A DNA stretch of 64,000 nt from assembly GCF_046105845.1 (NCBI RefSeq), contig NZ_CP151004.1, one strand, 5' to 3'. This DNA comes from Escherichia coli (GTDB lineage: Bacteria > Pseudomonadota > Gammaproteobacteria > Enterobacterales > Enterobacteriaceae). This document shows positions 36,001-39,000 of this stretch, one piece after another. A program made the position numbers. Positions within the stretch are counted from its first letter, which is position 1; every line of letters starts with the position of its first letter.

Positions 36001-39000
36001 GAAGCATCATGCCATCATTAATGGTAAAAAGTTTAAAACTAGCCGGGCTATCTCTTGTCGATCCTTTAATCGTTATTTTTCTGTTTCGACAGATTACAGA
36101 CCTAAACTTGAAGCACTATTAGCATGCTCACAAATGTTAGGTATAAATCAAGTTGTTGCACATAACGGAAATGGTGGGAGAGAACGCATAGGTGAAACGG
36201 GGACAGTTTTAGGTCTTAACGCCCGTGACAGTAAGCATGCTGGAAGAATGTTCAGCATGCATAATTGCCAAATTAACCCTGGTGCGGGGCCTGAGATAAC
36301 CACTCCCTGGAAGTCTTACCAGCATGAAAAAAACAAAAATGGACTTATGCCTTTGATTAGAAGGCGCACAATGTTACAGCTCTGAACCATAGACAACATG
36401 AATATTAATGTTACTATCTGGTTGAGACTGTTGATAAAACGTAAAAAGGAATGCTCTGTTCCTGCAACTGAACAGGCGTGAAACGCTATCCAACAGGATG
36501 GATACCGTTTTGTCAGCCAGTTTTATAGATCACACTTATGAGTATGCGTGTTTCATTTACGGCCAGGAATGCTGATGATGACAACATTACTACCCGTTTT
36601 CACTAAGCCTTCCACGTTGGCGCTCAATGCTCTGCGCGCTGGTCGTATTTGCCGTTTCCTTCTTATCCCGGATGGAAGAATCCGCTGAACGTCGTTCGGC
36701 GGCAGTTGTAACACGCGTCGTTTGTTTACAGGGATTATGGCGGGTCGATTATGGATAAGAGTAAGCGCCATCTGGCGTGGTGGGTTGTCGGGTTACTGGC
36801 GGTGGCTGCCGTCGTGGCGTGGTGGCTGTTGCGCCCGGCAGGTGTGCCGGAAGGCTTTGCTGTCAGTAATGGGCGCATTGAAGCGACGGAAGTGGATATC
36901 GCCAGCAAAATTGCCGGGCGTATCGATACCATTCTGGTGAAAGAAGGCCAGTTTGTTCGCGAAGGCGAAGTGCTGGCGAAGATGGATACTCGCGTGTTGC
37001 AGGAGCAGCGACTGGAAGCCATCGCGCAAATCAAAGAGGCACAAAGCGCCGTCGCCGCCGCGCAGGCTTTGCTGGAGCAACGGCAAAGCGAAACTCGCGC
37101 CGCACAGTCGCTGGTTAATCAACGCCAGGCCGAACTGGACTCCGTTGCCAAACGTCATACGCGTTCCCGCTCGCTCGCCCAACGAGGGGCTATTTCTGCG
37201 CAACAGCTGGATGACGACCGCGCCGCCGCTGAGAGCGCCCGAGCTGCGCTGGAATCGGCAAAAGCCCAGGTTTCGGCTTCTAAAGCCGCTATAGAAGCGG
37301 CACGCACCAATATCATTCAGGCGCAAACTCGCGTCGAAGCCGCGCAAGCCACTGAACGGCGTATTGCCGCAGATATCGATGACAGCGAACTGAAAGCCCC
37401 GCGTGACGGACGCGTGCAGTATCGGGTTGCCGAGCCAGGCGAAGTGCTGGCGGCAGGTGGTCGGGTACTGAATATGGTCGATCTCAGCGACGTCTATATG
37501 ACCTTCTTCCTGCCAACCGAACAGGCGGGCACGCTGAAACTGGGCGGTGAAGCCCGGCTGATCCTCGATGCCGCGCCAGATCTGCGTATTCCGGCAACCA
37601 TCAGTTTTGTCGCCAGCGTCGCCCAGTTCACGCCAAAAACCGTCGAAACCAGCGATGAACGGCTGAAACTGATGTTCCGTGTCAAAGCGCGTATCCCACC
37701 GGAATTACTCCAGCAGCATCTGGAATATGTCAAAACCGGTTTACCGGGCGTAGCGTGGGTGCGGGTGAATGAAGAACTTCCGTGGCCTGACGACCTGGTG
37801 GTGAGGTTGCCGCAATGACGCATCTGGAACTGGTTCCCGTCCCGCCTGTCGCGCAACTGGCGGGCGTGAGCCAGCATTATGGAAAAACCGTTGCGCTGAA
37901 CAATATCACTCTCGATATTCCGGCCCGCTGCATGGTTGGGCTGATTGGTCCGGATGGCGTCGGGAAGTCGAGTTTATTGTCATTGATTTCCGGTGCTCGT
38001 GTCATTGAGCAGGGCAATGTGATGGTGCTGGGCGGCGATATGCGCGATCCGAAGCATCGCCGTGACGTCTGCCCGCGCATCGCCTGGATGCCGCAGGGGC
38101 TGGGTAAAAACCTCTACCACACCTTGTCGGTGTATGAAAACGTCGATTTTTTCGCCCGCCTGTTCGGTCACGACAAAGCGGAGCGGGAAGTGCGAATTAA
38201 TGAGCTGCTGACCAGCACCGGGTTAGCACCGTTTCGCGATCGTCCTGCAGGTAAACTCTCCGGCGGGATGAAGCAAAAACTGGGGCTGTGCTGTGCGTTA
38301 ATCCACGACCCGGAATTGTTGATTCTTGATGAGCCAACAACGGGGGTTGACCCGCTCTCCCGCGCCCAGTTCTGGGATCTGATCGACAGTATTCGCCAGC
38401 GGCAGAGCAATATGAGCGTGCTGGTCGCCACCGCCTACATGGAAGAGGCGGAACGCTTCGACTGGCTGGTAGCGATGAATGCCGGAGAAGTGCTGGCAAC
38501 TGGCAGCGCCGAAGAGCTGCGGCAGCAAACGCAAAGCGCCACGCTGGAAGAAGCATTTATAAATCTGTTACCGCAAGCACAACGCCAGGCGCATCAGGCG
38601 GTAGTGATCCCACCGTATCAACCTGAAAACGCAGAGATTGCCATCGAAGCGCGCGATCTGACCATGCGTTTTGGTTCCTTCGTTGCCGTTGATCATGTTA
38701 ATTTCCGCATTCCGCGCGGGGAGATTTTTGGTTTTCTTGGTTCGAACGGCTGCGGTAAATCCACCACCATGAAAATGCTCACCGGACTGCTGCCCGCCAG
38801 CGAAGGTGAGGCGTGGCTGTTCGGGCAACCGGTTGATCCAAAAGATATCGATACTCGCCGTCGGGTGGGCTATATGTCGCAGGCGTTTTCGCTCTATAAC
38901 GAACTCACCGTGCGGCAAAACCTGGAGTTACATGCCCGTTTGTTTCACATCCCGGAAGCGGAAATTCCCGCGCGAGTGGCTGAAATGAGCGAGCGTTTTA

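What the first reader, a model, noticed from the sequence alone, without database searches (positions are those of the whole stretch)
36569..36688. Unannotated small ORF (36–39 codons) with a Shine-Dalgarno in the leader region upstream of yhiI-rbbA-yhhJ
ATG codons at 36569, 36575 and 36578 open a frame encoding MLMMTTLLPVFTKPSTLALNALRAGRICRFLLIPDGRIR, ending at TGA 36686–36688. An AGGA lies 6–9 nt upstream of the second and third ATG. It sits 60 bp upstream of yhiI, which encodes part of a ribosome-associated system, so it could be a leader peptide or small membrane protein. It is too short for the ORF track.
Basis: seen in the sequence. Interest (0 to 1): 0.35.

Follow-up and report, generated by a model that had tools for sequence, protein, structure and literature searches.

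The report
Known upstream small gene yhiY
The small reading frame is real, but it is the already described and experimentally confirmed E. coli gene yhiY, and it most likely acts as a translated on/off leader for the yhiI-rbbA-yhhJ transporter genes rather than as a working protein.

Summary
It is not unannotated. It is yhiY (b4790, 37 aa, starting at the second ATG, 36575). RefSeq annotates it in about 5,400 complete E. coli genomes, and it has its own Pfam family (PF23514).

Comparison of 24 enterobacterial species argues for a cis-acting uORF. The start region is nearly invariant. The peptide beyond about 9 residues is hypervariable, tolerates frameshifts, and has pN/pS of 0.3-1.1 against 0.02-0.04 for yhiI. 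Three properties are conserved:
- a hairpin that presents the yhiY SD (GGA) in its loop;
- a C-rich, G-poor ORF body;
- a hairpin that contains the stop codon.

Published data fit this. The summit of a CsrA CLIP-seq peak maps to window 36570, in the SD loop. CsrA represses yhhJ. A Rho-dependent 3' end lies 20 nt after the stop codon.

Best model, inferred: CsrA blocks yhiY translation, the rut-like ORF body is left bare, and Rho terminates before yhiI.

The feature is already known. The CsrA-uORF-Rho link is a new, testable inference.

The parts
36390..36417 (+). Sigma-70-type promoter of the yhiY-yhiI-rbbA-yhhJ transcript: TAGACA, 16 nt, TG-n-TACTAT. The start site is inferred at about 36424.
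   Evidence: Promoter scan. The same motif sits directly upstream of the conserved leader in ST131 and in other genera. The yhiI fusion primer of Adams et al. begins at GAGACTG = 36424.
36424..36524 (+). Strongly structured segment of about 100 nt in the 5' UTR, found only in strains that carry yhiJ. It contains three extra GGA motifs.
   Evidence: Absent from ST131 and from other genera. Single copy, present in 4282 of 5426 genomes. Folding energy -36.1 kcal/mol, z -4.8.
36548..36587 (+). Near-invariant hairpin. The yhiY SD lies in the 7-nt loop (CAGGAAU, 36564-36570) and the start codons lie in the 3' arm. It is a candidate CsrA site.
   Evidence: Same fold predicted in 5 genera, -9.6 to -11.2 kcal/mol. 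12 of 14 pairs are invariant in 24 species. Variable columns are concentrated in unpaired positions, Fisher p = 0.005. The 65-nt block is at least 99% identical in 5401 of 5411 E. coli genomes. The summit of CsrA CLIP-seq peak_339 maps to 36570.
36565..36568 (+). Shine-Dalgarno AGGA of yhiY.
   Evidence: Sequence. GGA is invariant in 24 species.
36575..36688 (+). yhiY coding sequence (37 aa plus stop). It starts at the second ATG.
   Evidence: RefSeq annotation. Start site assigned from Onc112/retapamulin peak spacing. The first ATG is ACG or TTG in other genera. Pfam PF23514, 98.7 bits.
36574..36670 (+). The only C>G, YC-rich (rut-like) tract of the leader. It coincides with the uORF body.
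   Evidence: Composition scan. C/G is 1.35-2.9 in the uORF body of all 23 species with an intact leader, against 0.54-0.95 in the last 70 nt before yhiI, although the sequence itself is not conserved.
36655..36678 (+). Hairpin A (UUUCC.UCU / GGA.GGAAG). The nucleotide block is conserved even where it is read in a different frame.
   Evidence: Alifold and pair counts. Frameshifted reading in the C. freundii group and in Escherichia sp. E1V33.
36682..36702 (+). Hairpin B (CCGCUGAAC-GUC-GUUCGGCGG), which contains the yhiY stop codon.
   Evidence: -13.2 kcal/mol, z -3.2, 0 of 200 shuffles as stable. 97% of cells paired. Compensatory and wobble changes at 5 of 9 pairs.
36708..36708 (+). Published Rho-dependent RNA 3' end (K-12 3630645), 20 nt after the stop codon and 6 nt after hairpin B. 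A second published 3' end maps to 36686.
   Evidence: Supplement of Adams et al. 2021. Coordinates mapped through the collinear K-12 sequence.
36708..36718 (+). Conserved spacer element GUAACACGCGU. It is a candidate long-range pairing partner of 36544-36554, the 5' arm of the SD hairpin.
   Evidence: First predicted in the Klebsiella group. Found at -43/-42 from the yhiI ATG, as best or second-best complement, in all 24 species. 91% of cells paired against 20-63% for slid controls, but 38 of 500 shuffles match it. Suggestive only.
36729..36743 (+). Conserved ACAGGGAUUA (a second invariant GGA), followed by the weak yhiI SD-like GGCGG.
   Evidence: Invariant columns. Alifold pairs this region with 36640-36644 and 36715-36717, with one-sided changes only.
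36751..41674 (+). The regulated operon: yhiI (36751-37818), rbbA (37815-40550) and yhhJ (inside ORF 40466-41674).
   Evidence: ORFs. Annotation. Pfam HlyD, ABC_tran and ABC2_membrane domains.

Best explanation
The ORF is yhiY, a known translated small gene. It most likely works in cis as an upstream ORF that decides whether transcription reaches yhiI-rbbA-yhhJ. Its ribosome-binding site sits in the loop of a deeply conserved hairpin, which is a CsrA-type site (GGA in a loop). The proposed chain has two states.

When CsrA occupies the hairpin, yhiY is not translated. The C-rich, G-poor ORF body stays free of ribosomes and serves as a loading (rut) region for Rho. Rho then terminates just past the stop-codon hairpin (3' end at 36708) and inside early yhiI.

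When CsrA is titrated away, ribosomes on yhiY cover the tract and transcription reads through.

The peptide itself is largely a by-product.

Shown by published data: translation of yhiY, CsrA cross-linking at the SD loop, CsrA repression of yhhJ, the Rho-dependent 3' end, and the de-repression of a yhiI fusion in a rho mutant. Inferred here: the causal chain that links these results, the location of the rut region, and the roles of the hairpins.
For: Identity: RefSeq annotates yhiY at 36575-36688, and it matches Pfam PF23514.

Translation: Onc112/retapamulin profiling places the start at the 2nd AUG. Mass spectrometry finds about 1000-3000 copies per cell.

Cis rather than trans action:
- pN/pS is 0.3-1.1, against 0.02-0.04 for yhiI.
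- The within-species differences examined are mostly amino-acid changes (3 of the 4 nucleotide differences between the window and ST131 are non-synonymous), plus one stop-codon loss.
- Frameshifted 3' halves occur in the C. freundii group and in Escherichia sp. E1V33, and the Klebsiella group has 78-98 codon versions.
- Orthologues outside Escherichia fall below the Pfam cut-off.
- The SD and start codon are kept in 23 of 24 species.

Rut-like body: it is the only C>G tract of the leader, and this composition is conserved in every species with an intact leader.

Stop-codon hairpin: z -3.2 with covariation.

Rho: a Rho-dependent 3' end lies 43 nt upstream of yhiI (window 36708) and is flagged 'uORF'. 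A yhiI fusion is more than 2-fold higher in rhoR66S. CspD overproduction raises expression of the operon.

CsrA: CLIP-seq peak_339, assigned to the 'yhiI 5UTR', has logFC 1.83 and padj 2e-6. Its summit maps to 36570, in the SD loop. The same target is marked 'Yes' for co-purification and for sequence-based prediction. yhhJ is listed as repressed by CsrA.
Against: No experiment has tested a yhiY start-codon mutant for its effect on yhiI. The CLIP peak is 195 nt wide and also covers three GGA motifs in the K-12-type insert. The rut assignment rests on composition only. The open-frame test is weak: P is 0.2-0.5 per lineage and about 4e-4 as a product over lineages that are not fully independent, because stop codons are rare in all three frames of this pyrimidine-rich tract. 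The SD hairpin is no more stable than shuffled sequence (z -0.5 to -1.4), and because it is nearly invariant it shows no covariation. YhiY is detected in ordinary cultures in which Rho termination is also seen, so the switch is partial at best. In the Klebsiella group the uORF runs 67-131 nt into yhiI, which points to a different form of coupling there.
Confidence: 0.5

Rival explanations
1. yhiY is a ligand- or stress-sensing arrest peptide of the MdtU/SpeFL/TnaC type. A small molecule or translation stress stalls the ribosome in the uORF, and the stalled ribosome blocks Rho loading or opens the yhiI ribosome-binding site.
For: Adams et al. list yhiY-yhiI among uORFs with a 3' end less than 200 nt downstream, next to mdtU. 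The N-terminus MMTTLLP(V/D)F is conserved. A C-terminal IP(D/E)G..R-stop recurs in Escherichia, C. amalonaticus, Pseudocitrobacter and Salmonella. The stop codon sits inside a conserved hairpin.
Against: The C-terminal motif is lost by frameshift in six species of the C. freundii group and in Escherichia sp. E1V33, while the underlying nucleotides stay conserved. The N-terminal conservation coincides exactly with the RNA hairpin and extends 30 nt into the untranslated leader. No inducing ligand is known.
Confidence: 0.15
2. yhiY translation controls yhiI mainly at the translational level. Ribosomes on the uORF melt a structure that masks the weak yhiI ribosome-binding site, or couple directly to it. 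Rho termination is only a secondary polarity effect.
For: Alifold pairs 36640-36644 (inside yhiY) and 36715-36717 with the GGCGGGUCG just upstream of the yhiI AUG. The candidate long-range helix 36544-54 with 36708-18 could switch these pairings. In the Klebsiella group, and in E. coli CP53, the uORF reads across the yhiI start. The precedent is idlP-iraD.
Against: These pairings show only one-sided changes. The long-range helix is matched by 38 of 500 shuffles. A complement of 9 or more pairs occurs by chance in 35% of shuffled leaders. The 62-nt gap is long for direct coupling.
Confidence: 0.15
3. YhiY is a trans-acting small protein, for example an accessory subunit or regulator of the YhiI-RbbA-YhhJ transporter.
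For: It accumulates to about 1000-3000 copies per cell and is seen intact by top-down mass spectrometry. It is encoded with the pump genes. The family has a Pfam entry.
Against: The peptide is hypervariable, tolerates frameshifts and has pN/pS near neutrality. It has no hydrophobic helix. The known leader peptides MgtL and TnaC are detected in the same mass spectrometry study, so detection does not imply function.
Confidence: 0.1
4. The ORF is a translated but functionless by-product. The conserved leader elements act only as RNA (CsrA site, hairpins), and translation of the frame is incidental.
For: The open-frame test is weak. Kluyvera has ACG in place of the start codon and a stop after 4 codons, yet keeps the hairpin block.
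Against: SD plus AUG-AUG are invariant in 23 of 24 species. Two synonymous changes (ACA to ACC, UUA to UUG) occur in the first five codons of the Klebsiella group. Stop codons cluster at hairpin B in 15 of 16 species outside the Klebsiella/Raoultella group. Kluyvera has also lost most of the leader.
Confidence: 0.1

Closest known systems
yhiY (b4790) of E. coli K-12; Pfam PF23514
   Same: It is the same gene. The position between yhiJ and yhiI is identical, the peptide has 37 aa, and there is one substitution (P14T) relative to K-12.
   Different: Nothing of substance. This window comes from a strain other than K-12 (yhiI pS about 0.16 against K-12).
idlP-iraD (CsrA represses a short uORF and thereby the downstream gene; Park et al. 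2017, PMC5574718)
   Same: CsrA cross-links at the ribosome-binding site of a short uORF upstream of a gene it represses.
   Different: idlP overlaps iraD and acts by translational coupling. yhiY ends 62 nt before yhiI, and the link proposed here is Rho-dependent termination. CsrA repression of yhiY translation has not been tested.
mdtU-mdtJI, speFL and tnaC (uORFs that gate Rho-dependent termination)
   Same: A translated uORF in a long leader, a Rho-dependent 3' end shortly downstream, and a transporter or metabolic operon as the target.
   Different: Those uORFs depend on conserved peptide residues and a ligand-induced stall. Here the peptide is not conserved, no ligand is known, and the rut-like tract lies inside the ORF rather than after it.
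[quoted passage not shown] 2014, as reviewed in PMC7652899)
   Same: CsrA binding and Rho termination act in the same leader, and both repress an export operon.
   Different: In pgaA, CsrA remodels an RNA hairpin to expose rut sites and no uORF is involved. Here exposure would come from loss of uORF translation.

Membership tests
YhiY (Pfam PF23514; gene yhiY/b4790) | Sequence match above the curated Pfam gathering score | tested here: met
   98.7 bits against a cut-off of 27, covering residues 1-37 of 37.
YhiY (Pfam PF23514; gene yhiY/b4790) | Same genomic position as the named gene (between yhiJ or yhiM and yhiI) | tested here: met
   RefSeq yhiY maps to window 36575-36688. K-12 b4790 is collinear.
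YhiY (Pfam PF23514; gene yhiY/b4790) | Experimentally demonstrated translation | not testable with these tools
   Taken from the literature: Onc112/retapamulin start peaks and mass spectrometry detection.
Rho-gating regulatory uORF (mdtU / tnaC / speFL type) | Translated uORF in the 5' leader of the regulated operon | tested here: met
   Position and published translation.
Rho-gating regulatory uORF (mdtU / tnaC / speFL type) | Rho-dependent termination in the leader downstream of the uORF | not testable with these tools
   Published: a Rho-dependent 3' end at K-12 3630645 (window 36708) and a rhoR66S effect on a yhiI fusion. Here only a C>G tract and the absence of an intrinsic terminator could be shown.
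Rho-gating regulatory uORF (mdtU / tnaC / speFL type) | Conserved peptide residues needed for a ligand-dependent stall | tested here: not met
   The peptide beyond about 9 residues is not conserved and is frameshifted in two lineages.
Rho-gating regulatory uORF (mdtU / tnaC / speFL type) | uORF start-codon mutation changes downstream expression | not tested
   No such experiment was found in the literature searched.
CsrA binding site on an mRNA | GGA in the loop of a short hairpin, resembling CAGGA(U/A/C)G or RUACARGGAUGU | tested here: met
   Loop CAGGAAU closed by a 4-bp stem. GGA is invariant in 24 species. Criteria taken from the review. The match to the long SELEX consensus is only partial.
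CsrA binding site on an mRNA | Overlap with the Shine-Dalgarno sequence of the repressed ORF | tested here: met
   The GGA at 36566-36568 is the core of the yhiY SD.
CsrA binding site on an mRNA | Binding by CsrA in vivo or in vitro | not testable with these tools
   Published CLIP-seq peak_339, whose summit maps to 36570, plus co-purification. No gel shift or footprint is known for this hairpin.
CsrA binding site on an mRNA | Expression of the target changes in a csrA mutant | not testable with these tools
   Published list: yhhJ has Direction 1, meaning repressed by CsrA. yhiI and rbbA do not appear in the supplementary files held.

The most novel reading that the evidence does not exclude
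yhiY is the sensor of a three-part switch not yet described as such. CsrA binds a hairpin that is nearly invariant across Enterobacteriaceae and carries the uORF's ribosome-binding site. uORF translation then shields a rut tract embedded in its own coding sequence. This sets Rho-dependent read-through into the operon for the ribosome-associated ATPase/transporter RbbA. A long-range helix (36544-54 with 36708-18) may couple the two ends of the leader.
Probability: 0.35. Interest if true: 0.5.

Novelty: already known. Interest (0 to 1): 0.25.

Why it matters
As a discovery of a new small ORF, it does not matter: yhiY has been named, annotated and validated since 2019. The analysis adds a concrete, testable mechanism for an uncharacterised uORF. 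Three independent published data sets (CsrA CLIP-seq, Term-seq/Rho, small-protein profiling) had not been connected for this locus in the literature searched here, and all three converge on a single leader region of about 165 nt. Comparative genomics shows that selection acts on the RNA signals and on translation, not on the peptide. If confirmed, this would be a clean case of CsrA controlling transcription elongation through a uORF, and a handle on the regulation of the poorly understood YhiI-RbbA-YhhJ exporter.

Tried and rejected
- Rfam scan of 35800-37300 at E <= 1: no family.
- Intrinsic-terminator scan of the leader: none.
- NCBIfam: no model for YhiY or its orthologues.
I did not repeat it with the extended frame because genomic loci answered the question.
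- Open-frame preservation as proof of coding: weak, because stops are rare in all frames of this pyrimidine-rich tract.
- Alternative frame 36538-36606 (MSMRVSFTARNADDDNITTRFH) as the reason for the conserved block: rejected. Klebsiella-group changes are synonymous in the yhiY frame (ACA to ACC, UUA to UUG) but non-synonymous in this frame, and its ATG is not kept in that group.
- A conserved neighbouring regulator gene whose operator could explain the invariant block: none. The upstream neighbours differ: yhiJ, yhiM, yhiN, or a diguanylate-cyclase-like gene.
- The invariant block or the K-12-type insert as a repeated element: both are single copy.
- A yhiY-like uORF in Hafnia, Providencia, Proteus, Morganella, Moellerella or Limnobaculum: none found.
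- Literature on regulation or function of yhiI-rbbA-yhhJ: almost nothing, and one RbbA paper has been retracted.
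Full report
**1. The observation**

- In-frame ATGs lie at 36569, 36575 and 36578.
- The peptide is MLMMTTLLPVFTKPSTLALNALRAGRICRFLLIPDGRIR, ending at TGA 36686-36688.
- AGGA lies at 36565-36568, which is 6 and 9 nt before the second and third ATG.
- The yhiI ATG at 36751 is 62 nt after the stop.

A 37-39 codon ORF is not remarkable in itself. There are 49 ORFs of at least 20 aa in the surrounding 3.5 kb. In dinucleotide shuffles of the leader, a frame opened at this ATG stays open that long 46% of the time.

**2. What it is**

The ORF is not unannotated.
- A megablast of 36380-36760 against 5,426 complete E. coli genomes finds the region in 5,412 of them, where PGAP calls it "yhiY: protein YhiY".
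- In the 100% identical strain MEI003 the CDS corresponds to window 36575-36688.
- In K-12 MG1655 it is b4790, YP_010051203.1. The K-12 leader is collinear with the window.
- Pfam has a dedicated family, PF23514 "YhiY", which the peptide hits at 98.7 bits against a cut-off of 27.

- Weaver et al. 2019 found yhiY (their ORF9) by ribosome profiling with Onc112 and retapamulin. [quoted passage not shown]
- A 2025 proteomics paper detects YhiY by top-down, DIA and PRM mass spectrometry at roughly 1000-3000 copies per cell.

**3. Comparative anatomy**

One scan of species-representative genomes with YhiI returned loci from Escherichia, Citrobacter, Pseudocitrobacter, Salmonella diarizonae, Klebsiella (oxytoca group), Raoultella, an Enterobacter sp. 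and Kluyvera, as well as more distant genera.

A uORF beginning MMTT(L/F) sits at the same place in 23 of 24 enterobacterial leaders. Nothing similar is present in Hafnia or the Morganellaceae. The first ATG (36569) is ACG or TTG elsewhere, so the second ATG is the conserved start. This agrees with the profiling result.

The peptide is not conserved.
- Beyond about 9 residues it is hypervariable, with a 24-nt indel.
- Six species of the C. freundii group and Escherichia sp. E1V33 read the 3' half in another frame.
- The Klebsiella/Raoultella group has 78-98 codon versions that run 67-131 nt into yhiI.
- Kluyvera has lost the start codon.
- Within Escherichia, pN/pS is 0.3-1.1 for yhiY against 0.02-0.04 for yhiI.
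- The E. coli variants examined differ mostly by amino-acid changes, and one has lost the stop codon.
- Orthologues outside Escherichia fall below the Pfam cut-off.
- The peptide has no hydrophobic helix.

Detection by mass spectrometry does not argue for a function, because the leader peptides MgtL and TnaC are detected in the same study.

**4. What is conserved instead**

(a) A block from about 30 nt upstream of the start to codon 5 is nearly invariant in 24 species. In E. coli, 65 nt around it are at least 99% identical in 5401 of 5411 genomes. The same holds for only 585 of 5412 genomes for the next 65 nt and 87 of 5412 for the 65 nt after that.
- The block folds in every genus into the same hairpin (36548-36587). 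The SD lies in a 7-nt loop, CAGGAAU, and the AUGs lie in the 3' arm.
- Variable columns fall in unpaired positions (6 of 12 unpaired columns vary, against 2 of 28 paired columns; Fisher p = 0.005).
- Because the hairpin is nearly invariant, there is no covariation to support it. It is also no more stable than shuffled sequence.

(b) The uORF body is the only C>G, YC-rich tract of the leader.
- This composition holds in all 23 species with an intact leader, although the sequence is not conserved. C/G is 1.35-2.9 in the body against 0.54-0.95 in the last 70 nt before yhiI.
- It also explains why stop codons are rare in all three frames and why frameshifts are tolerated.

(c) In 15 of 16 species outside the Klebsiella/Raoultella group, the stop codon lies in a hairpin (36682-36702).
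- The hairpin folds at -13.2 kcal/mol, z -3.2.
- It shows wobble and compensatory changes. With the neighbouring hairpin A, 96.5% of cells are paired against 29-59% for slid controls.

(d) A spacer element (36708-36718) is complementary to the 5' arm of the SD hairpin in all 24 species.
- All of its substitutions are transitions that keep pairing, and there is one two-sided change.
- A complement this long arises by chance in 35% of shuffled leaders, and 38 of 500 column shuffles match the score. I rate this as suggestive only.

**5. Published functional data that land on these elements**

- Adams et al. 2021 list a Rho-dependent 3' end at K-12 3630645, flagged "uORF". This is window 36708, 20 nt after the stop and 6 nt after the stop-codon hairpin. 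They list another 3' end at the stop codon and a strongly Rho-dependent one inside yhiI. A yhiI fusion was more than 2-fold higher in rhoR66S. They name yhiY-yhiI among candidate regulatory uORFs.
- CspD overproduction raised expression of "the operon associated with yhiY".
- Potts et al. 2017, written before yhiY was annotated, report CsrA CLIP-seq peak_339 in the "yhiI 5UTR" (K-12 3630743-3630937, logFC 1.83, padj 2e-6). The same target is positive for CsrA co-purification and for sequence-based prediction. The summit, at peakStart + 40 = 3630783, maps to window 36570, the last base of the SD loop.
- Their transporter table lists yhhJ, the third gene of the operon, as repressed by CsrA.
- A GGA in the loop of a short hairpin overlapping an SD is the textbook CsrA site.

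**6. Mechanism**

Putting these together, my best explanation (confidence about 0.5) is that yhiY is a cis-acting uORF. CsrA occupancy of its ribosome-binding hairpin sets its translation. Translation in turn decides whether the C-rich ORF body is covered by ribosomes or is free to load Rho, and hence whether RNA polymerase reaches yhiI-rbbA-yhhJ.

The individual observations are published or shown here. The causal chain is inferred. No start-codon mutant of yhiY has been tested.

The rivals are:
- a ligand-sensing arrest peptide of the MdtU/TnaC type, weakened by the frameshifted lineages;
- translational unmasking of, or coupling to, the yhiI ribosome-binding site, supported only by weak pairings and by the Klebsiella arrangement;
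- a trans-acting small protein, weakened by near-neutral evolution of the peptide;
- incidental translation, weakened by the invariant SD and AUG.

**7. Comparison and novelty**

The feature is the known gene yhiY, so the finding as written is already known. The closest mechanistic relatives are:
- idlP-iraD, where CsrA represses a uORF;
- the pgaA leader, where CsrA promotes Rho termination;
- mdtU, speFL and tnaC, which are uORFs that gate Rho.

It fails the defining feature of the arrest-peptide class, which is a conserved peptide. I found no paper that connects CsrA, yhiY translation and Rho at this locus. That link is a new and readily testable hypothesis of moderate specialist interest.

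Noticed in passing
window 36418-36535: Strains that carry yhiJ (4282 of 5426 genomes) have about 105 extra nt between the -10 box and the conserved leader. This lengthens the yhiY 5' UTR from about 46 to about 151 nt. The segment is single copy, has imperfect terminal inverted repeats, folds into a long hairpin (-36.1 kcal/mol, z -4.8), and adds three GGA motifs that lie inside the published CsrA CLIP peak.
   Followed up: partly
L018-L024 (Klebsiella oxytoca group, Raoultella, Enterobacter sp.), locus positions about 2331-2631: The uORF with the same conserved start is 78-98 codons long and reads out of frame across the yhiI start codon, 67-131 nt into yhiI. E. coli strain CP53 (L085) reaches a similar arrangement through a TGA-to-TGG change in the stop codon.
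   Followed up: partly
L084 (E. coli E423), locus 1792-2598: An IS1A insertion replaces the 5' part of yhiY, and rbbA in the same strain is a pseudogene with an internal stop. The whole unit appears to be decaying in that strain.
   Followed up: no
window 36544-36554 with 36708-36718: A candidate long-range helix joins the 5' arm of the SD hairpin to a conserved spacer element that begins exactly at the published Rho-dependent 3' end. It is kept in all 24 species through transitions only. Statistical support is weak.
   Followed up: yes
window 36729-36738: ACAGGGAUUA, 13-22 nt upstream of the yhiI AUG, matches 9 of 12 positions of the CsrA SELEX consensus. Its GGA is invariant in all 24 species. 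It lies outside the published CLIP peak.
   Followed up: partly
window 36538-36606 (+): An alternative-frame 22-codon ORF (MSMRVSFTARNADDDNITTRFH) spans the invariant block. The substitution pattern favours the yhiY frame, so this ORF is probably not coding.
   Followed up: yes
window 34763-36385 and 32810-34501: yhiJ (DUF4049) and the neighbouring yhiL-like ORF form an insertion, relative to ST131-type strains, between yhiM and the yhiY promoter. The yhiJ stop codon ends 4 nt before the -35 box.
   Followed up: partly
literature: The 2011 PLoS One paper on RbbA as a ribosome-dependent ATPase interacting with YhjD was retracted in 2025. The 'ribosome-associated' label on rbbA should therefore be treated with caution.
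   Followed up: no
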